Shown here one piece after another: positions 5,151 to 30,306 of a DNA stretch of 31,469 nucleotides (the stretch's first letter is position 1; every line of letters starts with the position of its first letter). The stretch lies in the IMG/VR virus record IMGVR_UViG_3300044580_000297, positions 1 to 31,469 of that record; one strand, written 5' to 3'. Made by a program: the position numbers and the translations under genes. This DNA comes from a virus. Lineage: Duplodnaviria > Caudoviricetes. The notes under the pieces were generated by a model, which worked only from the letters and a program-made list of their open reading frames with translations, had not been told where the DNA came from and did not search any database.

Positions 5151-5620
5151 AAGCATTGCTTGGAAAACTGACAGAACAAATAAAAAACAATGTTGCATAT
5201 CTGAATGAAAGTGGATATTATTGCAGAGATACCTTTGAATTAGTGCAATTGAATAAATATCCATTTTTTAATGTAATACCTACACCTACTACAACAATTG
5301 AAGTGAGTAGTCCTGCTGGGATAAATAATAAAGATATAGAACGGCATATTTATAATGTTACAATTCAATTTGCCACTCGAAGCCTTATAATTAATACTGC
5401 TTTAATGGGCGATGATGTAAAAAAGATTAAAGGCTTATTTGATGTATGGGCTGATATCTGGAACGCAATAAAAGTTGATAGGACGATCTCTGGAACGGTG
5501 AGTGGATTATTGCCTGCAAGTAGTATAAATTTTGATGTGGCACAGGATACAATTGACAAGTATTATATCGCAGTTGGGGAAGTGAATTTAAAGTTTTACA
5601 AGGATATAGCATTGTTATGA
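5147..5620 (+). CDS. probable tail terminator/completion protein
   Basis: YPFFNV...D.TISGTV pattern, size and synteny. Confidence 0.55.
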   Translation: MKALLGKLTEQIKNNVAYLNESGYYCRDTFELVQLNKYPFFNVIPTPTTTIEVSSPAGINNKDIERHIYNVTIQFATRSLIINTALMGDDVKKIKGLFDVWADIWNAIKVDRTISGTVSGLLPASSINFDVAQDTIDKYYIAVGEVNLKFYKDIALL

Positions 5621-6447
5621 TTGGAAGGGTTCGCTATATATGGGACAACAGGAATATATATTATAATGGCAAAATGAAGGACTTTATAAATAATGAAGTC
5701 TATGAAAACGAAATAACAGAATGCGCAGAATTGATACGGTCGGGAAAGTTTGTACCAGAAGACAATGAAACATTTGAAATGTTAAAGCAAATGTACGCCA
5801 CAACAAAATATAAACCGATTGAAAATATGTTGCAGGGAACAGATTGCTATATTATCGGAAGCGGAGCAAGCCTTAAAGATTTTGACTTCAATGCCATTTA
5901 TGGTAAAGGATATATCCTGGCGATTAATCACAGCGCAAAATATTGCAATAGCGATGCTATTATTTTTATAGATGAAAAATTTTATTATCAAAGCAAAGAG
6001 TTTTTGCAGGAATACAAAGGAACGATATTTGCAAGCTGGCAGAGCAACTATTGGCTGAATGCCTTAACAAGTGCAACGGTATATTATTTTAGCACCATAA
6101 GAGAAAAAACTTATAACGGCAGGCTACACTCACAATTTTACAAAGGATTATATGATAGTGGCAACACAGGGCTATGCGCAATACATTTGGCAATAATAAT
6201 GGGGGCTAAAAATATCTATCTATTGGGGTATGACCTGGACAGCAAAGCAAAAGAAAAACATTTTTATGATGAAAATGGGGTTGATAAATTTTCAAATGGT
6301 GGCAATTATAAAAAGGTTGAGAAGATGGCATCGTTGATTGAAAGGCATAGCAAATATTTTGGCAAGTATAGCCATATTTACAATTGTAATCCTAACAGTA
6401 AAATTGAATGCTACAAAAAGATAGCTATTGAAGGTGAAGCGATATGA
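5617..6447 (+). CDS. Maf/DUF115 (MptE-like) family putative nonulosonate glycosyltransferase
   Basis: CYIIGSGASL, LAINHS, IIFID, NTGLCAIHLAIIMGAKNIYLLGYD, IYNC motifs of this Rossmann-like family. Confidence 0.75.
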   Translation: MIGRVRYIWDNRNIYYNGKMKDFINNEVYENEITECAELIRSGKFVPEDNETFEMLKQMYATTKYKPIENMLQGTDCYIIGSGASLKDFDFNAIYGKGYILAINHSAKYCNSDAIIFIDEKFYYQSKEFLQEYKGTIFASWQSNYWLNALTSATVYYFSTIREKTYNGRLHSQFYKGLYDSGNTGLCAIHLAIIMGAKNIYLLGYDLDSKAKEKHFYDENGVDKFSNGGNYKKVEKMASLIERHSKYFGKYSHIYNCNPNSKIECYKKIAIEGEAI

Positions 6448-7079
6448 TATATTATGTCATACCAGCCAGGAAAGGAAGCAAGGGACTGCCATTTAAAAAT
6501 AGATTGCTATTCTGTGACACGGCGAACACAGTCAAGGATTATGGAAAGAATGTGATTGTATCAACCGATGATGAAGAGATAATGGTGATTGCCGAAAGGT
6601 ACGGCTTCACTATTAGAGAACGGCCAGCTGAATTTGCGCAAGACAATACAAAAATTAAAACAGTACTTCACGATATATTAAATAGTTTCAGAATGGAAGG
6701 CGATGACATAATAGTAATGCTCTATCTAACATACCCAGAGCGAACATTGCAGAACATACAGGATGCTATTCATTTTTTTGAAATGAATAATGGAAAGAGT
6801 ATGCTCTGTAAAAAGGAATGGAAGTATGTTCATCCTTGCCTATGTATGTACGATATGGGAAACAACAAGGGACAGCCATTATTTTATCACAGCTTTTATC
6901 GTCGCCAGGATTATCCAAAAGTTTTTCAGGTTAGCCATTTTATTGTAATTTTTAAAGTATATGAATTTAATAAATTAAATAATCAGCTCTATAATGAAAA
7001 TACAATCTTTATGCCAATTGAAGATTATATTGATGTCGATAGCCAGTCAGACTATGATAAATTTATAACAAGGAGTTAG
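6444..7079 (+). CDS. neuA: acylneuraminate (CMP-nonulosonate) cytidylyltransferase
   Basis: VIPARKGSKGLPFKN, VSTDDEEI, RPAEFAQD, RRQD, IDVDS..D motifs. Confidence 0.92.
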   Translation: MIYYVIPARKGSKGLPFKNRLLFCDTANTVKDYGKNVIVSTDDEEIMVIAERYGFTIRERPAEFAQDNTKIKTVLHDILNSFRMEGDDIIVMLYLTYPERTLQNIQDAIHFFEMNNGKSMLCKKEWKYVHPCLCMYDMGNNKGQPLFYHSFYRRQDYPKVFQVSHFIVIFKVYEFNKLNNQLYNENTIFMPIEDYIDVDSQSDYDKFITRS

Positions 7080-7084
7080 CTGAT

Positions 7085-7975
7085 ATGTGGATTGTTGCTG
7101 AAATCGGATGCTCACACGAAGGCGATGAAGAGAAAGCCAAGAAGCTTATTAATAATTGTGCAGAAGCAGGATTTACGCACGTCAAATTACAGAAACGAAC
7201 ACCAGAATTATGTGTCCCCAAGAGTATGTGGCATCAAAAAAAACAGATACCTTATGGTATAGTTGATTATATTGACTACCGCCATATTTTAGAGTTCAAT
7301 AAATATCAATATGAACGGCTTGCCAAATATGCAAATGAATGCGGAGTTATTCTTTTTGCATCGGTTAGCGATATACAGTCAGCTATCGATTTAAAAGATA
7401 TAGGAATGACAATTGTCAAGATACCGTCCCCAAAAATAGTTAATAAAGAATTACTAAACTATTGTCGGGATAATTTTGAATACAGGATTATGAGCACAGG
7501 GATGAGCACAGAAAGCGAAATTGAAAAAGCAATTGATATATTACAACCGCAGATAATCAATCATAGTGTCTCACAATATCCGACTTCAATGGAAAATTTA
7601 ACTATGGGCTATTTAAAATGGCTCAAAAATAAATATAAACATATCGATATAGGGTATAGTGGGCATAGCATCGAAAATGTTTCATCGATGCTTGCTCTAT
7701 GGTACGGCTCAATATACATAGAAAGGCATGTATGTTTCAATCGGGGAATAGACTGGATTAGCGATAACAGGATTAGTTTACAAGTGAATGAATATTATAA
7801 TTATGTCGGTAGACTGCTCATCGAAGTGAGCAAAATAGAAAGATACAGCGAAGATTTAAAAAATAAAAGGATAAATGAACTGGAAAATTTATTGCCGAAG
7901 GAAGCGTTACAGGGCAACAAAGAGCGGGAATTACTGGAATGCGAAATTGAAAAATATAAATCGTTGCGGGGCTAA
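7085..7975 (+). CDS. neuB: N-acetylneuraminate synthase family (PEP-dependent nonulosonate synthase), no obvious C-terminal SAF domain
   Basis: VAEIGCSHEGD, VKLQKR, KIPS, MSTGMS, HSVSQYPT, GYSGH, IERH motifs. Confidence 0.92.
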   Translation: MWIVAEIGCSHEGDEEKAKKLINNCAEAGFTHVKLQKRTPELCVPKSMWHQKKQIPYGIVDYIDYRHILEFNKYQYERLAKYANECGVILFASVSDIQSAIDLKDIGMTIVKIPSPKIVNKELLNYCRDNFEYRIMSTGMSTESEIEKAIDILQPQIINHSVSQYPTSMENLTMGYLKWLKNKYKHIDIGYSGHSIENVSSMLALWYGSIYIERHVCFNRGIDWISDNRISLQVNEYYNYVGRLLIEVSKIERYSEDLKNKRINELENLLPKEALQGNKERELLECEIEKYKSLRG

Positions 7976-7977
7976 TT

Positions 7978-8280
7978 ATGATATATTGTTTCGACATAGA
8001 CGGCACATTGATTAGCACAGTCTATAACAAAGATAAAGGGTATAGCATCCAATGGTTTGCAAACGATATGATCAAAATGATAAATTTATTATATGATGAA
8101 GGGCACACCATAATAGTACAGACTGGCAGACATTGGAATTGGTTTCAACAGACACAACAGCAACTAAGTGAAATAGGGCTGAAATACCATACTCTGATTA
8201 TGGGCAACGTTGTGGCTGATTATTATATTAACGATAAAGGTTTAAAACCTAACGAGTTTATTAAAATGCTGGAGGATTAA
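7978..8280 (+). CDS. small capless HAD-family phosphatase (capsule-biosynthesis type)
   Basis: FDIDGTL, TGR, ADYYINDK HAD motifs in 100 aa. Confidence 0.85.
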   Translation: MIYCFDIDGTLISTVYNKDKGYSIQWFANDMIKMINLLYDEGHTIIVQTGRHWNWFQQTQQQLSEIGLKYHTLIMGNVVADYYINDKGLKPNEFIKMLED

Positions 8281-21926: not shown

Positions 21927-22319
21927 ATGATAGTAGTAAGTCTATTTGATGGTATAGCGACTGCACGAGTAGCATTAGAAAGAGCAGGAATAGAAGTGAC
22001 AAAGTATTATGCAAGCGAAATAGATAAATATGCTATTTCAATTACACAGAAGCATTTTCCTGAAACCATACAAATAGGCGATGTAGCAAAAATTGATTGG
22101 GAATCTTTCCTTGCAAAAATAAACAATAATTACCATCTAACAAGGTTTGAGCCTACAAGTAAAATTAGTAAACTAAGCAGAAGCCACGGGGCTTGCCCTG
22201 TGGAGTGTCACTACAAAGCTCACACTTGCATCATTAGCACAGCCGATGCAGTTAGCTTATGCAGCAGCAAGAACAAAAAGGGGGATGTTGGAAATGGTAG
22301 ATTTATTAATAGGTGGTAG
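21927..22319 (+). CDS. C5 cytosine DNA methyltransferase N-terminal fragment (motifs I-III only)
   Basis: VVSLFDGI...YYASEIDKYA...IGDV, then non-MTase sequence; out of frame with the catalytic part. Confidence 0.75.
   Translation: MIVVSLFDGIATARVALERAGIEVTKYYASEIDKYAISITQKHFPETIQIGDVAKIDWESFLAKINNNYHLTRFEPTSKISKLSRSHGACPVECHYKAHTCIISTADAVSLCSSKNKKGDVGNGRFINRW
22021..22213 (+). repeat. 193-bp direct repeat, copy 1 (copy 2 at 23039-23231)
   Basis: Identical by eye except one T/C mismatch (22199 vs 23217); offset 1018 bp. Confidence 0.95.
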
Positions 22320-23232
22320 TCCATGTCAGGGATTCAGTTTTGCGGGTAAACAGCTGAATTTCTCTGACCCGAGAAGCAGATTATTTTTTGATTTCGTGGA
22401 GGCTTTAGAAGTGCTAAAGCCAAAGTATTTTTTGTTAGAAAATGTAAAAATGAAAAAAGAATATGAAAGGGTGATAACACAGCATTTAGGTGTCAAGCCT
22501 ATAGAAATCAATTCTGCTTTGGTGTCAGCACAGAATAGGATTAGGCTATATTGGACGAACATACCAGGTATCCAGCAACCAAAGGATAAAGGTATATTAC
22601 TAAAAGACATAATTATAAACGGTGAAGTAGATAGATATAAGTCATTCTGTGTAGACGGTAACTACTACAAGGGTGGAAATATCAAGCAATATTTTGAAAA
22701 ACATAGAAGGCAAATTGTCTTCACACAGAAGTTTGGTGAAGACTCACGATACTATAAGTTCAGAATGCTTTATCCGATAGAGTGTGAAAGACTTCAATCT
22801 TTACCTGATAATTATACTGCCATAGGTGTTATTGACGGTAAAGAAATACCCATACCAAAAACACAAAGATATAAAATGCTTGGCAATGGCTGGACTGTAG
22901 ATGTTATTGCACATATTTTTTCTTTCATACCAGAAACGCATTTACATACTGTTGTTAGTCTATTTGATGGTATTTCCTGCGGTCAATTAGCTTTGATAAG
23001 GGCGGGGAAGCAATATAGTAAATATTATGCTTCAGAGGTAGATAAATATGCTATTTCAATTACACAGAAGCATTTTCCTGAAACCATACAAATAGGCGAT
23101 GTAGCAAAAATTGATTGGGAATCTTTCCTTGCAAAAATAAACAATAATTACCATCTAACAAGGTTTGAGCCTACAAGTAAAATTAGTAAACTAAGCAGAA
23201 GCCACGGGGCTTGCCCCGTGGAGTGTCACTAA
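22294..23232 (+). CDS. C5 cytosine DNA methyltransferase, circularly permuted (motifs IV-X then I-III)
   Basis: GGSPCQGFS, LLENV, QNRIRLYW, ECERLQ, LGNGW, then VVSLFDGI, ASEVD, IGDV. AAGGGGG SD favours ATG 22294; the ORF track start is 22246. Confidence 0.85.
   Translation: MVDLLIGGSPCQGFSFAGKQLNFSDPRSRLFFDFVEALEVLKPKYFLLENVKMKKEYERVITQHLGVKPIEINSALVSAQNRIRLYWTNIPGIQQPKDKGILLKDIIINGEVDRYKSFCVDGNYYKGGNIKQYFEKHRRQIVFTQKFGEDSRYYKFRMLYPIECERLQSLPDNYTAIGVIDGKEIPIPKTQRYKMLGNGWTVDVIAHIFSFIPETHLHTVVSLFDGISCGQLALIRAGKQYSKYYASEVDKYAISITQKHFPETIQIGDVAKIDWESFLAKINNNYHLTRFEPTSKISKLSRSHGACPVECH
23039..23231 (+). repeat. 193-bp direct repeat, copy 2
   Basis: See copy 1. Confidence 0.95.
23155..23229 (+). 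mobile_element. IS200/IS605-family right-end-like remnant (also at about 22137-22211)
   Basis: AAGCAGAAGCCACGGGG-CTTG-CCCCGTGGAGTGTCAC: subterminal hairpin ending in TCAC. No transposase in the window; left boundary approximate. Confidence 0.5.
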
Positions 23233-23396: not shown

Positions 23397-23822
23397 ATGA
23401 TAGTAACGAACCAAAAAATAACAAGTGATTATGGTGTAGAACGAATATTGCCTGATAGTAAAAAGCAAGTACATGATGGCATTGATTTCATATCACTAAA
23501 AGGTGATAGGACAGTGTATAGTATAACAAACGGATTTGTTGCATATGACTTTGACGATTATTGCCACATGCGACGATATGAAAAACCGAATACTGGCGGG
23601 AACATGGTGATTGTCACAAGTGTAATTAAAGGCGTTACTTATCATATTCGCTATTTGCATCTTGTCAAAAACAACGTTGTGAAAGGGCAGATGGTGTATG
23701 ATGGTATGCCTATTGGTGAATATGGCGATGTTGGATATTCATTTGGAGCGCATGTCCATCTTGATGTTTATACAGCCGATTGGAGTAAAAAAATAAATCC
23801 ACACTCTATATTGTTAATCTGA
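23397..23822 (+). CDS. M23 family metallopeptidase (endolysin)
   Basis: HDGID, GGNMVIV, YLHL, GAHVH zinc motifs, INP end. Confidence 0.9.
   Translation: MIVTNQKITSDYGVERILPDSKKQVHDGIDFISLKGDRTVYSITNGFVAYDFDDYCHMRRYEKPNTGGNMVIVTSVIKGVTYHIRYLHLVKNNVVKGQMVYDGMPIGEYGDVGYSFGAHVHLDVYTADWSKKINPHSILLI
23722..23765 (+). repeat. 44-bp exact direct repeat, copy 1 (copy 2 at 30217-30260)
   Basis: ATGGCGATGTTGGATATTCATTTGGAGCGCATGTCCATCTTGAT occurs at both sites. Confidence 0.95.
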
Positions 23823-23860
23823 CAAATATAAATAAAATGTAGTCAAAAAACGTAGCATAA

Positions 23861-23928
23861 TTTTTTTTAAAAAAAATCAAAAAAATTAAAAAAAAATGTT
23901 GACTTTATAATAGTGATGTGATTATATT
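23861..23928 (+). promoter_or_regulatory. putative strong early promoter with UP-element A/T tracts
   Basis: TTGACT (23899-23904), 18 bp, TATATT (23923-23928), preceded by T8/A8/A7/A9 tracts. Confidence 0.65.
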
Positions 23929-23964
23929 GATAATAGAATTAATTAATAAAAAAGGAGGAACAAA

Positions 23965-24210
23965 ATGAGAGAAGCAAAGGAAAAAATAATAACTGAAAAA
24001 AATAAAAAAGTTGTTATTGAAGTGAATTCAATAAGTGATTATAACGAATTATATAGGATAGCCAATGAATGGCTACCTATATTATTGGGATATGAAGACA
24101 TATCAATGATATGTCGTGAATATCCTGGCCCTGAAACAACAAGAATGTACACTCTGAATTTCCAGAATGTATTAAGGGCAGTTAAATTTGCAAGAGGTTA
24201 TTTGAAATAA
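23965..24210 (+). CDS. hypothetical early protein
   Basis: AAAGGAGG RBS, 81 aa. Confidence 0.7.
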   Translation: MREAKEKIITEKNKKVVIEVNSISDYNELYRIANEWLPILLGYEDISMICREYPGPETTRMYTLNFQNVLRAVKFARGYLK

Positions 24211-24260
24211 TAACTTGCCCCGCCCGCTGGGCTCTATAAGCGGGCAAAAAAGGAGGATAT

Positions 24261-24335
24261 ATGAAAAAAGTAACGTTAATGGACTTAAATGCACCAAGAG
24301 TAGTGACAAGCAATTTAATAATAAAGGGGGCTTAA
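24261..24335 (+). CDS. 24-aa peptide
   Basis: AAGGAGG RBS, MKKVTLMDLNAPRVVTSNLIIKGA. Confidence 0.4.
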   Translation: MKKVTLMDLNAPRVVTSNLIIKGA

Positions 24336-24336
24336 G

Positions 24337-24504
24337 ATGGAAAGAAAAATTTATTTAGTTGTGGATAAGGACAAAGCCGAAAGGCTTGTCCGCTGTTATC
24401 CTGAATTGAAGCGTCGTGTAGTGTATAATATGGCTTTTAATAAAGGGATTGAACAAATGATAAAGGAAAAGGAGGAACAAAATGGCAAAAAAACAACAAA
24501 GTAA
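24337..24504 (+). CDS. 55-aa protein, possible ribbon-helix-helix regulator (not in ORF track)
   Basis: AAGGGGG RBS; MERKIYLVVDKDKAERL... strand-then-helix pattern. Confidence 0.5.
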   Translation: MERKIYLVVDKDKAERLVRCYPELKRRVVYNMAFNKGIEQMIKEKEEQNGKKTTK

Positions 24505-25219
24505 AGAAGTAAAAAGCAAAGAAGTAATGAAAAAAACCCAAAAAAATGTCCAGATTAAAGAGCAATTTAATCTGGACAAGATAAGTAGCTTAATATTGAC
24601 AGGTGATTTACGGCAGTTATCACCTGAAGAGAAAGTGCAATATTATGGCAAACTATGCAAATCACTTGGTCTTAATCCTTTAACTAAACCATTTGACTAT
24701 ATAGTACTACAAGGGAGAGAAGTACTATATGCAAACAAAAATTGTGCTGAACAATTAAGACTATTGCACGGGATAAGTGTTGTTGATAGCACACAAGAGA
24801 TTATTAATAATATGTGTATTGTAAAAGTAAAGGTGCAGGATAAGAACGGAAGGTATGACATCGGGACAGGTGTTGTACCGCTTGGAAACTTATCTGGTGA
24901 TGCTCTTGCAAATGCTTTAATGAAAGCAGAAACAAAGGCGAAACGCAGGGCGACATTATCATTATGCGGTCTTGGGATGCTGGATGAGACAGAACTGGAA
25001 ACAATCAATATACAACATGCCGAACCAGAGATAAAAAAGTTAGTTGACAATCGAGCAGAAGCAATAGAAAAATTAAAGAAACTGCCTGATGAGATTAAAA
25101 CAAGAATGAGACAAAAGGGCATGAAGCTTGATGATGCTATTAAACTGTGTGAAGTTGCGAAATGGAATGTGGAATTGATTACAAAGGCGCTGGAGGATGA
25201 TAATGAAACTGGAAATTGA
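24482..25219 (+). CDS. single-strand annealing recombinase (Bet/RecT-like)
   Basis: LCKSLGLNPLTKPF and ANALMKAETKAKRRA.L...GLG.LDETE; adjacent to an exonuclease. Confidence 0.7.
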   Translation: MAKKQQSKEVKSKEVMKKTQKNVQIKEQFNLDKISSLILTGDLRQLSPEEKVQYYGKLCKSLGLNPLTKPFDYIVLQGREVLYANKNCAEQLRLLHGISVVDSTQEIINNMCIVKVKVQDKNGRYDIGTGVVPLGNLSGDALANALMKAETKAKRRATLSLCGLGMLDETELETINIQHAEPEIKKLVDNRAEAIEKLKKLPDEIKTRMRQKGMKLDDAIKLCEVAKWNVELITKALEDDNETGN

Positions 25220-25802
25220 AAAATTTGATAGAATAAATCATCAGTATTATTGTGATGGGCGGGTTATCCCATCTGTCACGAGAATATTGGAAACAAGTAA
25301 CTATTATAAAAATGTAGACAAGGAAATATTGGCACAAGCGGCGGCACGAGGAAGTTTATTGCATCAGAATGTTGCGTATTATATAGAAACAATGGATACG
25401 ATGAACGAGCCATTGCTTGACAAATTTGCTAAAACATTCGATAAGATACATAAATATATTGGCAATGTAATAGCAAATGAAATAATACTTGCCGCTGAAA
25501 TAAAGAATATGCGTTTTGCAGGAACAATAGATATTCTGACAGATATAGCAGTCATTGAAATAAAAAGTAATATGACAAATAAAAAGTTATACTGGTTACA
25601 ATTAGCTGGATATTCAGTGCTTGCAAAAGAAAACAATATGTCTAAAGCAAAATATTACATTATACTACATGTAAAGAATAATGATTGGGAATTTGCAATT
25701 GCAACAGGGAAAAAATTGAAAGAGTATGAGCGAATATTTATGTTGCACTTGCAAAAGTATTATTTGCAAGAGCAAATAAAAGAATATTTTAATAAATTAT
25801 AG
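25203..25802 (+). CDS. PD-(D/E)XK exonuclease
   Basis: IPSVTRIL, RGSLLH, FAGTIDIL, VIEIKS, LQLAGY; GGAGG RBS (alternative start 25197). Confidence 0.85.
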   Translation: MKLEIEKFDRINHQYYCDGRVIPSVTRILETSNYYKNVDKEILAQAAARGSLLHQNVAYYIETMDTMNEPLLDKFAKTFDKIHKYIGNVIANEIILAAEIKNMRFAGTIDILTDIAVIEIKSNMTNKKLYWLQLAGYSVLAKENNMSKAKYYIILHVKNNDWEFAIATGKKLKEYERIFMLHLQKYYLQEQIKEYFNKL

Positions 25803-25812
25803 GAGGTGTATT

Positions 25813-26022
25813 ATGATTATAGGAGCGGCTTGGCTTAAGGAAAAGGATGGACAAAAATACTTCTATGTTAAGTGTGATTTGCCGTTGTTAGGGAGCTTGT
25901 CATTTGTTATTAAAAAACGAGCAGATAAGAAAGGCAATCAGCCCGACTACGATGTAATATGGTATCCAGAAAGGAAACAGGGTGGTGCACAAGAAATACA
26001 AGAAGAAGAAATACCATTTTAA
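25813..26022 (+). CDS. DUF736-like putative ssDNA-binding protein
   Basis: IGAAW...QPDY motif and SSB-like acidic tail EEEIPF. Confidence 0.7.
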   Translation: MIIGAAWLKEKDGQKYFYVKCDLPLLGSLSFVIKKRADKKGNQPDYDVIWYPERKQGGAQEIQEEEIPF

Positions 26023-26034
26023 AAGGAGGATAAA

Positions 26035-26241
26035 ATGTATAATTATAATGATACTAAAGCATATAATAGATATCAATTATTGAAAGATAAATATTATATC
26101 CATGAAATATCAGGTGAAGTACGGTGGTTACCGAAGCAAACAGGATATTACAAGCCGTTAAGTTATGAAAAATATTTATTGCATTGTGTCAATACGCATA
26201 TTAATACTGCAATAAGACAGGGATATGAAAAATTAAAATAA
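26035..26241 (+). CDS. hypothetical protein
   Basis: AAGGAGG RBS, 68 aa. Confidence 0.65.
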   Translation: MYNYNDTKAYNRYQLLKDKYYIHEISGEVRWLPKQTGYYKPLSYEKYLLHCVNTHINTAIRQGYEKLK

Positions 26242-26254
26242 AGGGGGAACAAAT

Positions 26255-26467
26255 ATGCAAGACATAAAAGAAATCAAAATGATAATAGAATTGATGCTTG
26301 AACTAATGGGAATTTACTATTCATCGGAATATTATTTTATCCCAAAGTGTGGCGAAACTTTTGATGATGAAATAAGAAATAGTTGTGCGCAAAAATGTAT
26401 TGATTTTGATAATTGCTGGACTAAACATAAGATATGCAAAATAATGAATGAAGGAGGAACAATATGA
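26255..26467 (+). CDS. hypothetical Cys-rich protein
   Basis: RBS present, five Cys in 70 aa. Confidence 0.6.
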   Translation: MQDIKEIKMIIELMLELMGIYYSSEYYFIPKCGETFDDEIRNSCAQKCIDFDNCWTKHKICKIMNEGGTI

Positions 26468-26970
26468 AAGAGTTAAGCAAAATCACAATCAAAGCAATAA
26501 CGAATGAAAAGGAATTACAGCAAGCAGCACAAAATTTGATGGTTTTAAAATTAATGAAAGAAAAAGCAGAACAGATATATAAAGAGAAAAGGGAAAAATA
26601 TGCAGAAGTACTGAAAGAGATTGAAGCTATCAATCAGGAAGAGAAAGCTTTCATTGCAACAATCAAGGATTATGACAATAAAATAAGGACTGAGATAAAA
26701 AATTATATAACAGCCCTAATCCAGGAAGGGCAACAGGTAGAAAAAATAATCCCTGTTGAAGGCGGTAGAGTAACATTTGTAAAGGACATCGACATAGAGT
26801 ATGAAAAGGCAAAAGTGATTAAAATGGTATTACAGGGAAAATTGGATGAAGATGTCCTTGAAATCAATGAAACTAAATTAAAAGCAATAGTTGCTAATGG
26901 AATGAAAATACAAGGTGTTGAAGTAAAAGAAACTGTCACTATGAGAGTATTAAAAGAAAAAGGCGCTTGA
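26464..26970 (+). CDS. Gam/Gp157-like coiled-coil protein
   Basis: Long helical N-terminus, C-terminal INETKLKA...G.KIQGVEV motif. Confidence 0.55.
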   Translation: MKELSKITIKAITNEKELQQAAQNLMVLKLMKEKAEQIYKEKREKYAEVLKEIEAINQEEKAFIATIKDYDNKIRTEIKNYITALIQEGQQVEKIIPVEGGRVTFVKDIDIEYEKAKVIKMVLQGKLDEDVLEINETKLKAIVANGMKIQGVEVKETVTMRVLKEKGA

Positions 26971-26981
26971 AAAAGCGCCTT
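26952..26981 (-). terminator. intrinsic terminator (minus strand)
   Basis: AAGGCGCTT/AAGCGCCTT stem (26960-26981) followed on the minus strand by TTTCTTTT. Confidence 0.65.
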
Positions 26982-27041
26982 AAAGGTAAACTAAAAGGAG
27001 GAACAAAATCCCGCAAAAGGGTGGGTGCGGGAGGTTGTTAT
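26952..27041 (-). ncRNA. putative ~90-nt antisense small RNA with anti-Shine-Dalgarno core
   Basis: Leftward consensus promoter, 5' hairpin (27009-27032), single-stranded AUUUUGUUCCUCCUUUU, terminator hairpin with U-tail. Confidence 0.6.
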
Positions 27042-27047
27042 AATAAT

Positions 27048-27076
27048 AATATAGCACTTGTTATAAAGGATGTCAA
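27048..27076 (-). promoter_or_regulatory. leftward sigma70 promoter with extended -10
   Basis: Minus strand TTGACA (27076-27071), 17 bp, TGc-TATATT (27053-27048). Confidence 0.7.
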
Positions 27077-27127
27077 CAATGAATGTTAAAATTATTGAAA
27101 AAATTATAATATGTTGTACAAATAGAA

Positions 27128-27157
27128 AAGCCTTAAAGCAAGCGGGCTTTAAGGCTT
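27128..27157. repeat. 12-bp inverted repeat upstream of replication gene
   Basis: AAGCCTTAAAGC-N6-GCTTTAAGGCTT. Confidence 0.8.
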
Positions 27158-27187
27158 CAAATCAATTAATCGAAAAGGAGCAGGTCT

Positions 27188-28366
27188 ATGAATGACAACA
27201 ACAATATGCAAAAACGTTATGACATATTACCAGAATATATATGTCTTTGTCAACAACTAAATGCAACTGAAAAACTGATATTGGCTAAAATATTTAGCTT
27301 ATCCAGAAAAACTGGTTTCTGTTGGGCAGGAACAGAATATTTGATGAAAACGCTAAATATCTCAAAACCAACAATGCTTAAATACTTAAAAGAACTAAAG
27401 AAAAAAGGCTTTTTGGTTGAGTATATAGATGAACAAAGAAAAATACGGCTAAAATATCCATTGATAAATGAAACAAACAATCGTTTTGCTATATTGCATG
27501 AAGATGTGATGCAAGATGATGAATTAAAGCCTGCTGATAAATATTTGTATGCGATAATAACATTATTTAGTCAAAATAGTCTTGGAGTATGTTGGGCAAC
27601 TAATGAGCAACTAAACCAATATATGAATATATCTGAAAGAGAAATAAGAAATATTCTAAAAAAATTAAATACTAAAAAACATATATTGATATATCGCAAT
27701 AGCAAATATCGATACATAATCCCTAACTATGGTGTTGAATACACCGACATAGAAAGATTTTTAACTGGGGAGATTGATGAATTTTTAACAAAGTGTGCAG
27801 AAATAACACAGGCGGAAATATTTTTACCTAATAATGAAACAGAAGGCGGAAAAAATTTTACCGATGGAGGAAATATTTTTACCACAGGCGGAAAAATTTT
27901 TACCCATAACAATATAAATAACGATATAAATAACAATATAAAAAATTACACTTTTTCTGATGAAAAAGTGTCCGCAGAACAACAAAATGACATTGTTGCA
28001 ATAACAAATAACAACGTAATCAACAATGAAAAAACAAAAGAAAAAGACAATTTCAACAAAATTAAAGCAAAATTCAAAGAGTATAACAAAGATTATTATC
28101 ATGATGGAAAACAAGCTAAATTTATTAAGATGCTGTTAAAGCGATGCAATGATGATGTGAATATTGTGCTTGACTATCTTGATAATTATGTTAAACTTAA
28201 AATTGAGAATAAAAAAGAGTTTTGGAAGAGTGCACCGTTGACACCGCAGGGATTGTATACCAGGCTTGATTATTTGATTGAAATGCGGAAAGAATATATG
28301 AGCAAGGAGGATGAGGAAACTATTGCATATATTAACAAATTATTCGGGAGAGACAATAATGGTTGA
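27188..28366 (+). CDS. replication initiator with two tandem winged-HTH domains
   Basis: Two L...EK/DKL...I..(L/F)S...G.CWA..E.L repeats; internal iterons. Confidence 0.85.
   Translation: MNDNNNMQKRYDILPEYICLCQQLNATEKLILAKIFSLSRKTGFCWAGTEYLMKTLNISKPTMLKYLKELKKKGFLVEYIDEQRKIRLKYPLINETNNRFAILHEDVMQDDELKPADKYLYAIITLFSQNSLGVCWATNEQLNQYMNISEREIRNILKKLNTKKHILIYRNSKYRYIIPNYGVEYTDIERFLTGEIDEFLTKCAEITQAEIFLPNNETEGGKNFTDGGNIFTTGGKIFTHNNINNDINNNIKNYTFSDEKVSAEQQNDIVAITNNNVINNEKTKEKDNFNKIKAKFKEYNKDYYHDGKQAKFIKMLLKRCNDDVNIVLDYLDNYVKLKIENKKEFWKSAPLTPQGLYTRLDYLIEMRKEYMSKEDEETIAYINKLFGRDNNG
27811..27942. promoter_or_regulatory. putative replication origin (iterons plus AT-rich repeats)
   Basis: Four 18-mers GGMGGAAAWAWTTTTACC at 27811, 27845, 27866, 27887, then three 12-mers TAACRATATAAA at 27907-27942. 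Confidence 0.8.
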
Positions 28367-28946
28367 TAACATATTACAAAAAATAGAAAATATGTATGGA
28401 AATTACAGGCCAGCATATAAAGTGGCAGTACGCAATTTTTTAGAGAAAATCCCGCAAGAAAAATATGAAACTATGATGCAAAATTTACTGTTGAGATATA
28501 AATCTGAATATAATCAGCCGCCATCAATACCAACGCTAATGGAGATGGCAGGAATGACACTGGATAATGAAGCTGAAAAGGAATGGATAACATTAAGAAA
28601 TGTGAGCGCTATGGTAAGTGTTCTGATAATTAATCCCAGGACACAAGCAGTTGTCGAAAGTTATGGTGGGTGGTATAATTTTTGTCAGCAACGGGAAGAA
28701 AATGAATACACGCACAAGGATTTTATCGAACGATATAAAACTGTTACGCCTGCCGAAAAGCCGAAAGTGTTGAGGGGCTATGCTGACTATTTCTGGAATA
28801 GAGATATTGATTATAGCAAAGTAAAAATAATTGGAGATTATCAGAAAGGGACAATATTGCTATGTCAAATAGAAAAAAAAGAGATTGACAAAAAGCAAAA
28901 TGAGATTGAAAAGTTAGTTGCAAAAACAATAAAATATATTGAATAA
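28359..28946 (+). CDS. DUF6475-like replication accessory protein (helicase loader/inhibitor position)
   Basis: PPSIP.L and P.TQAVVESYGGW..FC...DFIERY; follows the initiator; GGAG RBS favours 28359. Confidence 0.6.
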   Translation: MVDNILQKIENMYGNYRPAYKVAVRNFLEKIPQEKYETMMQNLLLRYKSEYNQPPSIPTLMEMAGMTLDNEAEKEWITLRNVSAMVSVLIINPRTQAVVESYGGWYNFCQQREENEYTHKDFIERYKTVTPAEKPKVLRGYADYFWNRDIDYSKVKIIGDYQKGTILLCQIEKKEIDKKQNEIEKLVAKTIKYIE

Positions 28947-28960
28947 AGGAGGAACAAAAA

Positions 28961-29347
28961 ATGTACCAAGACACAATTATGTTAGCAGTAAGAGACGGAA
29001 AGCCAGAAATATCGCTTGATGGCGATGAATGGGTTGGGGTCAATATCGATATCAATGGATTAAAAGACGATGAGTACTTAATTGAATTCTATATTGATAT
29101 AATAGGTTATGATCCTGGCCGTGACGCGCCAGCACCAAAAAATGATATTCTGATGGCGATACCGCCTGAACCAGAGGAAGTTGATTATGAAATAGTCGGT
29201 GCAATTATCCTTGATAGTGATTTAAATGAAAAGAAAAAACTTGCTCTTTCTGATGCATGCAAGATAATTGGTGTGTACGAAAACACAATATATGATTGTG
29301 TGCTTGAATATGCAAAGGAGCAGTACAATGGAAATATATATGATTAA
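28961..29347 (+). CDS. hypothetical acidic protein
   Basis: Strong RBS, 128 aa. Confidence 0.7.
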   Translation: MYQDTIMLAVRDGKPEISLDGDEWVGVNIDINGLKDDEYLIEFYIDIIGYDPGRDAPAPKNDILMAIPPEPEEVDYEIVGAIILDSDLNEKKKLALSDACKIIGVYENTIYDCVLEYAKEQYNGNIYD

Positions 29348-29774
29348 GAAGAACAGTGTGTTTATCCCTGCATATGATAGTGATAGAGAAATGGCTAATA
29401 AAATAAATGATGGTGCAATTCTGCATTGCAAGATATACAAATGGCATTCTGTGCAACAGCACAAGGCAGTGTTTGCCCTGGCCAGGACTGTGTTGATGAA
29501 TATGCCTGAACATTCACGATGGGGTCAGGCGTATAAGAATAACAGGGAAAAAGCAACGTATAATTTTGTGAAAGCAATGGAACTTGAATTAGGATTTTTT
29601 GAAGTAATGATGAAATTTGACGGCACTGCATATGTGGTGCCGTCCTCTCTTAAATATGACATGATGGACAGGGAAACATTTAATTTATTATTTCAAGCAT
29701 ATCTGGATAAATGTGCAGAATTATTGGGGTGTGACGCCGAACAATTATTATTACAATCCAAGGAAAATCTATGA
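29328..29774 (+). CDS. DUF1367/NinB-like recombination protein
   Basis: H..VFAL...PSSLKYDMMDRETFNLLF motif; AAGGAG RBS favours 29328. Confidence 0.65.
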   Translation: MEIYMIKKNSVFIPAYDSDREMANKINDGAILHCKIYKWHSVQQHKAVFALARTVLMNMPEHSRWGQAYKNNREKATYNFVKAMELELGFFEVMMKFDGTAYVVPSSLKYDMMDRETFNLLFQAYLDKCAELLGCDAEQLLLQSKENL

Positions 29775-30103: not shown

Positions 30104-30306
30104 CTGATATAATAAACGATTTAAGACCTGTTAAAAAAAATGTTACAGAGTTTATCACATTGCAATCACATGCGAAAGGGAGGCCGCCACAGGGCAGGGA
30201 TGCGCATGATATTGTAATGGCGATGTTGGATATTCATTTGGAGCGCATGTCCATCTTGATATATATACTCATGATTGGAGTGCGAAAGTTAATCCTCATG
30301 AATTAG
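30085..30306 (+). CDS. hypothetical, probably chimeric ORF
   Basis: AAGGAGG RBS; the 3' part reads out of frame through the endolysin remnant. Confidence 0.45.
   Translation: MYYNTITDIINDLRPVKKNVTEFITLQSHAKGRPPQGRDAHDIVMAMLDIHLERMSILIYILMIGVRKLILMN

What the first reader, a model, noticed from the sequence alone, without database searches (positions are those of the whole stretch)
26952..27076. Leftward small RNA complementary to a ribosome-binding cassette shared by several early genes
Seen: the only clear minus-strand transcription unit. TTGACA-17-TGcTATATT drives an RNA with a 7-bp hairpin and C-rich loop, an unpaired AUUUUGUUCCUCCUUUU, and a terminator. That core (plus strand AAAAGGAGGAACAAAAT, 26993-27009, followed by C so there is no start codon) matches 17/17 the translation starts at 23950-23966 and 24467-24483 (recombinase), 15 nt at 28945-28959 and 12 nt at 26451-26462. 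Its position, antisense and just upstream of the initiator gene, recalls lambda OOP RNA. Inference: a multi-target trans-acting translational repressor, possibly RNA-based immunity or timing control, in a window with no recognisable CI repressor.
Basis: partly seen in the sequence, partly recalled or inferred. Interest (0 to 1): 0.82.

Follow-up and report, generated by a model that had tools for sequence, protein, structure and literature searches.

The report
Phage RNA mirroring early ribosome sites
An uncultured sludge phage and its relatives keep a short non-coding stretch that is the mirror image of a tagged ribosome-binding site shared by six of the phage's own early genes, and it likely makes a small RNA that would switch those genes off together, though the RNA itself has not been seen.

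Summary
A leftward extended -10 promoter, a hairpin, a core antisense to the tagged RBS and a terminator lie at 26952-27076. The tag occurs 6 times against 0.15 expected, only in the early region. The 73-nt block is nearly invariant in 6 of 6 spanning relatives, while the left-hand gene differs at about half its four-fold sites and the right flank is swapped. Each hairpin shows one compensatory pair, and a different promoter spacer keeps the -10 and the 17-nt spacing. No relative has a gene after the orphan RBS. The six best predicted targets are all early genes; the initiator is not one.

Corrections: half of the core is predicted to pair with the RNA's own 5' end. A second leftward unit (27120-27253), antisense to the initiator start, is the OOP-like one. 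Nothing supports immunity.

Best reading (0.5): a ~90-nt trans-acting repressor of early translation. Unresolved: no transcript evidence, possible termination at the first hairpin, and no RNA-target covariation. Side result: the reversed SAS of cluster K1 mycobacteriophages sits in a conserved hairpin loop, which offers a cultured test system.

The parts
27048..27076 (-). Predicted promoter of the RNA (TTGACA, 17 nt, extended -10)
   Evidence: The TG and -10 are invariant in 6 of 6 spanning relatives; 4 of them have another spacer sequence with TTGCTA at the same 17-nt spacing.
26952..27041 (-). Predicted ~90-nt non-coding RNA; start inferred 7 nt after the -10, end at the U tail
   Evidence: Fold z -7.8; no AUG; start and end are inferred, not mapped.
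27009..27032 (-). 5' hairpin (7 bp, 10-nt C-rich loop); also a borderline terminator
   Evidence: Compensatory pair 27012/27029 in L082; loop-region variants in runs X2, X4, X5; terminator score 0.5.
27002..27039 (-). Predicted lower stem: 5' AACAA (27035-27039) pairs with UUGUU (27002-27006) and masks the tag-reading half of the core
   Evidence: invariant, so covariation says nothing about it.
26993..27009 (-). Core antisense to the tagged RBS (an orphan RBS on the + strand, no start codon)
   Evidence: unchanged in 6 of 6 relatives.
26982..27001 (-). Single-stranded anti-SD seed and linker (predicted toehold)
   Evidence: Unpaired probability about 0.9.
26952..26981 (-). Terminator-like hairpin and U tail, overlapping the stop codon of gene 26464
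   Evidence: score 2.9 here, 0.2 in relatives; outer pair A-U here and C-G in relatives.
23950..23966 (+). Predicted target: RBS of the first early gene (23965)
   Evidence: 17/17; -20.7 kcal/mol.
24467..24483 (+). Predicted target: RBS of gene 24482 (likely single-strand annealing protein)
   Evidence: 17/17; -23.0 kcal/mol; tag kept in 5 of 5 relatives that cover it.
26020..26030 (+). Predicted weaker target: RBS of gene 26035 (SD only here; full or near-full tag in orthologues)
   Evidence: 11 nt; -17.8 kcal/mol.
26241..26253 (+).
   Evidence: One G-U; -18.4 kcal/mol; longer match in L085, L086 and run X5.
26451..26463 (+). Predicted target: RBS of gene 26464 (Gam/Gp157-like lead)
   Evidence: 12 nt; -18.0 kcal/mol; full tag in 7 of 7 relatives that cover it.
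28945..28959 (+). Predicted target: RBS of gene 28961
   Evidence: 15 nt; -16.8 kcal/mol; kept in 3 of 3 relatives that cover it.
27036..27044 (+). Perfect plus-strand extended -10 overlapping the RNA start (rival reading; not conserved)
   Evidence: Sequence; broken at 27040 in the variant contigs of runs X2, X4, X5.
27095..27123 (+). Weak candidate for the divergent promoter of the replication module, back to back with the RNA promoter
   Evidence: TTGACA in 6 of 6 relatives, TTGAAA here; the -10 is poor in this allele.
27120..27253 (-). Second candidate leftward unit (~95 nt), cis-antisense to the initiator RBS and start; OOP/ctRNA-like position
   Evidence: The same layout with an unrelated terminator is in L083, L084, L086, L087. 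The promoter lies in codons, so protein constraint may explain its conservation.
27188..28366 (+). Replication initiator gene; not a predicted target of the 90-nt RNA
   Evidence: phrog_270; -5.4 kcal/mol.

Best explanation
The stretch 26952-27076 is a conserved leftward non-coding unit that likely makes a ~90-nt small RNA, which would repress translation of about six early genes by pairing with the tagged ribosome-binding site they share. Shown: the promoter match, both hairpins, the complementarity, the restriction of the tag to early genes, and conservation of the block. Inferred: the open anti-SD stretch acts as a toehold; the target's AACAA then displaces the RNA's own 5' AACAA, which gives a 13-17-bp duplex over the SD and up to the start codon and spares ordinary strong RBSs (capsid, initiator). 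Its promoter sits back to back with the likely promoter of the replication module. The likeliest job is therefore timing: damping recombination and nuclease-inhibitor genes as replication begins. Immunity is less likely.
For: Tag: 6 copies against 0.15 expected. AACAA follows GGAGG at 4 of 11 window starts against 2 of 385 in 72 unrelated phage loci, and 0 of 36 such loci with >=5 sites share a 5-mer three times. Targets: the 9 best of 43 starts are all among the 18 early-region genes (p 9e-5; rank test p 0.002), and orthologous starts score -16 to -24 in relatives. Conservation: the 73-nt block differs at 0-2 positions in 6 of 6 relatives, while gene 26464 is 69% identical with about half of its four-fold sites changed and the right flank is replaced in 4 of 6. 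Promoter kept through a spacer swap. One compensatory pair in each hairpin. None of 7 observed changes falls in the 26-nt linker and core (p 0.05-0.07). No gene follows the orphan RBS in 6 of 6 loci, nor in the contig pieces listed for 4 DNA runs.
Against: No transcript was observed. Hairpin 1 is followed by U4-G-U2 and scores 0.0-0.5 as a terminator, as high as the final terminator of the relatives (0.2) (formula recalled), so much of the RNA may stop before the core. The core never varies, so RNA-target covariation could not be tested. Only 3 distinct sequences were aligned and the hairpin covariation is not significant (166 of 500 shuffles). The block is also the crossover point between swapped modules, so recent exchange may inflate its identity. 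U tails are cheap on this strand (22% of plus-strand 8-mers have >=5 A). The distant relative L001 has a leftward TTGACA and a hairpin at the same place, but a poor -10 and no tag family. In cluster K phages a similar tag persists in 8 of 13 genomes with no exact reversed copy, so such tags do not need an antisense RNA.
Confidence: 0.5

Rival explanations
1. The promoter is real, but transcription mostly ends at the first hairpin and gives a ~40-nt RNA. That RNA acts through its C-rich loop, or transcription itself tunes the divergent replication promoter. The tag copy downstream is then partly just the U tract.
For: Hairpin 1 plus UUUUGUU scores borderline-positive (0.5); the 5' AACAA can extend the stem into that tract; the relatives' second terminator is no stronger.
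Against: The 10-nt loop, the weakening compensatory change in L082 (score 0.0) and the loss of the inner pair in X2/X4/X5 are all tolerated. The 18 nt beyond the U tract are invariant. The loop's complement lies close to a start codon at only one site among the loci scanned (L083, imperfect).
Confidence: 0.15
2. The tag is a DNA- or protein-read element (a recombination boundary for gene shuffling, or an SAS-like site). The orphan copy is the junction between the recombination and replication modules, and any antisense RNA is incidental.
For: The block marks the switch between left and right alleles; tags sit at junctions of a variable gene slot; the linker and core closely match the gene 26035/26255 junction of other strains. 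Cluster K SAS persist without an antisense copy in 8 of 13 genomes. PeSL cassettes mediate shuffling (PMC2839356, abstract).
Against: It does not explain a conserved extended -10 with 17-nt spacing through a spacer swap, or two hairpins with compensatory pairs. The orphan copy is more conserved than the working 26255 junction. The tag copies are 13-17 nt and carry no promoter or hairpin.
Confidence: 0.15
3. The element works on the plus strand: an SD without a start codon that binds 30S subunits and protects the read-through mRNA to the initiator (STAB-SD-like), or a plus-strand extended -10 promoter.
For: Plus-strand termination at 26960-26981 is predicted poor (score -4.5 here, -0.8 in relatives), so read-through is likely. 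The plus strand folds as well (z -5.6). A perfect TG.TATAAT lies at 27036-27044. STAB-SD is described in PMC4113751 (passages).
Against: The plus -10 is broken in variants from 3 of 4 runs, while X5 shows the minus -10 intact. A STAB-SD needs only the SD, not the AACAAAAT or a leftward promoter. An AUC-start peptide is frameshifted in those variants and changed in L082.
Confidence: 0.1
4. The RNA is made, but its main targets are host mRNAs with strong SD sequences (host shut-off), and the phage matches are a by-product.
For: The open seed is a generic anti-SD; known phage trans-sRNAs mostly target host genes (PMC12197685, passages).
Against: The longest predicted duplexes are with the phage's own tagged starts. 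The host is unidentified, so this was not tested.
Confidence: 0.07
5. Neutral scar of a deleted gene.
For: The linker and core resemble the end of gene 26035 plus the next RBS in other strains, a plausible origin by duplication.
Against: 0 of 6 relatives have a gene there; the block is conserved while neighbouring synonymous sites are about 50% changed.
Confidence: 0.03

Closest known systems
c4 antisense RNA of phages P1/P7 (PMC12197685, passages)
   Same: Phage RNA that pairs around a ribosome-binding site of a phage mRNA and blocks translation.
   Different: c4 controls antirepressor synthesis and immunity through loop-located sequences. Here about six unrelated early genes share a tag and the seed lies in a linker. 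No Rfam match at gathering score.
Start-associated sequences (SAS) of cluster K mycobacteriophages (PMC3203893, section 15 read in part 1 of 2; PMC11373665, passages and section 19)
   Same: An SD extended by conserved non-pairing bases, before non-structural genes only, with a rare orphan copy. Function is stated as unknown, and binding of an RNA or protein is left open.
   Different: Different sequence and host group; 11-19 copies there against 6 here. In K1 the antisense copy is in a hairpin loop on the sense strand; here it is a separate leftward unit.
suhB/MmgR (RF00519) and similar hairpin / anti-SD linker / terminator sRNAs
   Same: Same layout; the weak alignment puts the anti-SD linker and the terminator in register.
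   Different: 23.2 bits against a gathering score of 41; these are chromosomal alphaproteobacterial RNAs with host targets. A resemblance of layout only.
Lambda OOP RNA (PMC12197685, passages)
   Same: Short leftward RNA with its own terminator just before the initiator gene.
   Different: OOP is cis-antisense to cII and acts through RNase III. This RNA overlaps only 19 nt of the upstream gene. The second unit (27120-27253), with its promoter in the first initiator codons, is placed more like pO (that detail of pO is recalled).
T4-type PeSL cassettes (PMC2839356, abstract) and STAB-SD (PMC4113751, passages)
   Same: A repeated regulatory cassette at variable gene slots; an SD with no start codon.
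   Different: The copies here hold no promoter or stem-loop; STAB-SD has no antisense promoter and no tag.

Membership tests
c4 RNA (P1/P7) | Match to a curated c4 model | tested here: not met
   No Rfam hit at gathering in the window or in L082, L083, L001; no c4 family among the 17 weak hits.
c4 RNA (P1/P7) | Target is an antirepressor operon | tested here: inconclusive
   No antirepressor match among the six predicted targets, but none of them has a significant family match.
c4 RNA (P1/P7) | Pairing sequences in hairpin loops | tested here: not met
   The seed lies in a linker and a weak stem.
c4 RNA (P1/P7) | Blocks translation by pairing at the RBS | not testable with these tools
   Predicted only.
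Lambda OOP RNA | Cis-antisense over the coding end of a cII-like gene | tested here: not met
   Overlap of 19 nt, within the terminator; gene 26464 has a Gam/Gp157-like lead, not cII.
Lambda OOP RNA | Leftward unit just before the initiator | tested here: met
Lambda OOP RNA | RNase III-dependent target decay | not testable with these tools
   None.
suhB/MmgR (RF00519) | Score at or above gathering (41 bits) | tested here: not met
   23.2 bits.
Cluster K SAS | Repeat just before start codons, one orientation, non-structural genes only | tested here: met
   5 of 6 copies precede an ATG; all are on + within 23952-28958.
Cluster K SAS | Conservation beyond the 16S-pairing bases | tested here: met
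   4 of 11 against 2 of 385; kept in orthologues.
Cluster K SAS | The 13-bp SAS sequence and the ESAS inverted repeats | tested here: not met
   The tag has a different sequence; ESAS-type repeats were not searched for.
PeSL | Each copy holds a promoter and a stem-loop | tested here: not met
   Exact matches outside the unit are at most 17 nt.
STAB-SD | SD without start codon at the 5' end of a stabilised mRNA | tested here: inconclusive
   An orphan SD is present; no RNA-end data.

The most novel reading that the evidence does not exclude
Phages write a private tag into the ribosome-binding sites of one gene class and shut the whole class off with a single RNA, an RNA-coded regulon switch. 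This element is one case. The reversed SAS of cluster K1 mycobacteriophages, exposed in a hairpin loop where Adephagia late transcription starts, is another, which would explain SAS.
Probability: 0.3. Interest if true: 0.85.

Novelty: new variant of a known kind. Interest (0 to 1): 0.62.

Why it matters
Known phage antisense RNAs control one phage gene (OOP, sar, c4) or host genes (PreS, DicF) (PMC12197685, passages). Four literature searches listed no phage RNA that reads a tag shared by a set of the phage's own genes; the library lacks most subscription journals. If true, gene-class timing can be written in RBS spacers and predicted from sequence, and newly acquired genes join the regulon by taking the tag. 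It also gives a concrete hypothesis for cluster K SAS, whose role was still called unknown in 2024 (PMC11373665) and which can be tested in a cultured phage. Within this scan the layout is not unique: 102 unchecked notes share the search words.

Tried and rejected
Expression: 4 metatranscriptome runs (X17-X20) were laid on 23500-29500. None has a contig on 26515-28323, but cover was thin (12, 11, 14 and 5 of 30 bins) and contigs from random-primed or unspecified libraries can miss a 90-nt RNA, so this is no evidence either way. RNA contigs starting at 23954-23955 may be assembly branch points, not start sites.

Distant homologues for covariation: two DNA patterns and four protein queries in viral contigs found nothing. 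The recombinase query gave 80 of 466 loci, of which only L001 shares gene order. The exonuclease query added the same contig and one weak hit that was not examined. The genome scan gave one weak hit. BLAST against cultured phages gave only 1% matches. The profile search found 9 proteins without context.

Host: not identified. One distant homologue of gene 26464 is named from a Spirochaetota MAG, a weak lead. Host targets were not tested.

Rfam: weak hits only. AUC-start peptide and plus-strand extended -10: not conserved. MAFFT misaligned the window's terminator; that pair was read by eye.

Cluster K covariation test: negative. SAS is unchanged in 13 of 13 genomes, while the loop differs in 8 of 12; the complements of the two variant loops searched have 0 forward copies. 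No covariance model was built, because there were only 3 distinct sequences. L081 and L088 end before or within the block and were left out of the 6. Minus-strand ORFs were not scanned against families.

Full report
Setting. The window is a whole 31,469-nt contig with 34% G+C. All recognisable genes are on the + strand: head and tail genes, a methyltransferase, an M23 peptidase, then an early block with an exonuclease, a replication initiator and a NinB-like gene (41 of 142 ORFs scanned). No terminase, portal, integrase or CI was matched, so the contig is a fragment. No lysogeny module lies between the lysin (ends 23822) and the first early gene (23965). Close variants occur in sludge, digester and wastewater DNA runs (four laid). 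The host is unknown.

Observation. The promoter is the only >=11/12, 17-nt site with TG in the window. The predicted 90-nt RNA folds far better than shuffles (z -7.8). The 13-nt tag occurs 6 times with <=1 mismatch against 0.15 expected, all between 23952 and 28958. The bases after the SD are unusual: AACAA follows GGAGG at 4 of 11 starts here and at 2 of 385 in 72 unrelated phage loci (only 14 of those sites come from loci under 42% G+C, none with the tag). Three corrections follow. Half of the core is predicted to pair with the RNA's 5' end. A second leftward unit exists. And the 'recombinase' label rests on a Rad52 lead only.

Relatives. Thirty other proteins are 64-98% identical to the product of the upstream gene 26464. 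Eight metagenome loci were recovered, six of which span the element. The block 26984-27056 differs at 0-2 of 73 positions, whereas gene 26464 is 69% identical, with 16-20 of 32-35 four-fold sites changed. In L083, L084, L086 and L087 the sequence changes right after the TG of the extended -10, yet TTGCTA stands 17 nt from the same -10. L082 changes both sides of one pair in hairpin 1, and the terminator's outer pair is A-U here and C-G in relatives. With 3 distinct sequences this is not significant (166 of 500 shuffles). Contigs of runs X2, X4 and X5 show a further allele. By my alignment of 30-letter loose ends it has an insertion and a substitution in or at the loop and one or two changes at the RNA start; X5 record 25 spans the block with 2 other letters and 1 gap. 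None of the 7 changes falls in the 26-nt linker and core (p 0.05-0.07). No relative has a gene after the orphan RBS. The block is also where left and right modules are exchanged, so some of its identity may be recent exchange.

Targets. Co-folding the whole RNA with 43 start regions ranks 24482, 23965, 26255, 26464, 26035 and 28961 first (-23.0 to -16.8 kcal/mol). The top 9 are all among the 18 early-region genes. The major capsid gene scores -10.1 and the initiator -5.4. In relatives the orthologous starts score -16 to -24 and the initiators -5.5 and -7.8. The tag is kept before orthologues of 24482 (5 of 5), 26464 (7 of 7) and 28961 (3 of 3), while spacers of untagged genes diverge. Two accessory genes in L083 lack it. 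In L085, L086 and run X5 the match before gene 26255 extends through the linker. This suggests that the core arose by copying that junction, and it allows longer pairing.

Mechanism. Inferred: host polymerase makes the RNA from a promoter back to back with the likely replication promoter. The open anti-SD seeds pairing, the target's AACAA displaces the RNA's own, and the duplex covers the SD up to the start codon. Timing control is more likely than immunity, given the gene order. The weak point is hairpin 1. With a terminator score recalled from B. subtilis work it gives 0.5 (0.0 in L082), against 2.9 for the final terminator here and 0.2 in relatives, so short and long forms may coexist. No transcript was seen.

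Second unit. A minus-strand TTGACA-18-TG.TAATAT in the first initiator codons (27253..27224) points at a terminator at 27127-27158; the RNA would cover the initiator RBS and start. Four relatives with an unrelated leader have the same promoter position and a different terminator.

Comparison. It works like c4 (RBS occlusion) but fails the c4, OOP, suhB and PeSL membership tests. The tag behaves like the SAS of cluster K mycobacteriophages, whose authors left open an RNA or protein partner and noted a single reversed copy in K1 genomes (PMC3203893; passages and part 1 of section 15). I fetched that site. In Anaya it lies in the 10-nt loop of a long hairpin in a 385-nt intergenic gap. The same loop, with differing stems, is in Adephagia, Peanam and Amelie: 4 of 12 loci examined, which were Anaya and 11 others taken from 25 listed of 186 records. 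Adephagia late transcription appears to start in the gap between genes 92 and 93 (PMC11373665, section 19), and the hairpin lies upstream of gene 93. Against generality: four more phages have C-rich but mismatched loops, four have unrelated loops, SAS is unchanged in 13 of 13, and 8 of 13 have no exact reversed copy. So there is no covariation there, and tags can persist without an antisense copy. Supplementary figure S3 of PMC3203893 was not read.

Papers. Passages: PMC12197685, PMC4113751, PMC11373665 (plus section 19). Abstract only: PMC2839356. All others were seen as search listings only. Earlier scan notes describe the same layout in other phages; they are unchecked and are not counted as support.

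Verdict. A real, conserved non-coding unit; most likely a multi-target anti-RBS RNA (0.5); a new variant of a known kind; interest 0.62.

Noticed in passing
window 27120-27253 (-); L083:1392-1502: Second leftward promoter-terminator unit antisense to the initiator RBS and start, with unrelated terminators in two alleles. In the L083 allele a 27-codon leader ORF overlaps the initiator start.
   Followed up: partly
L092:34850-34902 (Anaya); L104:213-265 (Adephagia); L094; L097: The reversed SAS of K1 mycobacteriophages is exposed in the loop of a conserved hairpin, in the gap where Adephagia late transcription appears to start. Exact in 4 of 12 loci, with no covariation with SAS. No Rfam hit in the two loci scanned.
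   Followed up: partly
window 5617-8280: Sialyltransferase/MptE-like, cytidylyltransferase, NeuB and phosphatase genes inside the head-tail module: possibly nonulosonic-acid glycosylation of the virion.
   Followed up: no
window 21927-23232: DNA methyltransferase in two overlapping ORFs, with a 283-nt repeat at 88% identity (21933-22213 and 22951-23231): a circularly permuted or duplicated gene, or an assembly artefact.
   Followed up: no
window 30217-30298 and 23722-23803: An 82-nt, 85% copy of the end of the M23 peptidase gene lies within ORF 30085; relatives have a different end there.
   Followed up: no
window 24547-24578: 13-bp perfect inverted repeat with a minus-strand U run inside gene 24482; not found in the relatives scanned.
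   Followed up: partly
window 24337-24504; L001:2584-2874: Small gene before 24482 whose product looks like a ribbon-helix-helix regulator by eye (recalled pattern; no significant Pfam hit): a possible transcriptional regulator of the early operon.
   Followed up: partly
L001:4965-5045: The distant relative has a terminator, a 10-bp inverted repeat and a leftward TTGACA between the 26464 homologue and a primase-helicase-like gene: same position, different element.
   Followed up: partly
window 23954-24003: RNA contigs in runs X17 and X18 share the first 49-50 nt (tag plus 13 codons) and then continue into a different gene.
   Followed up: no
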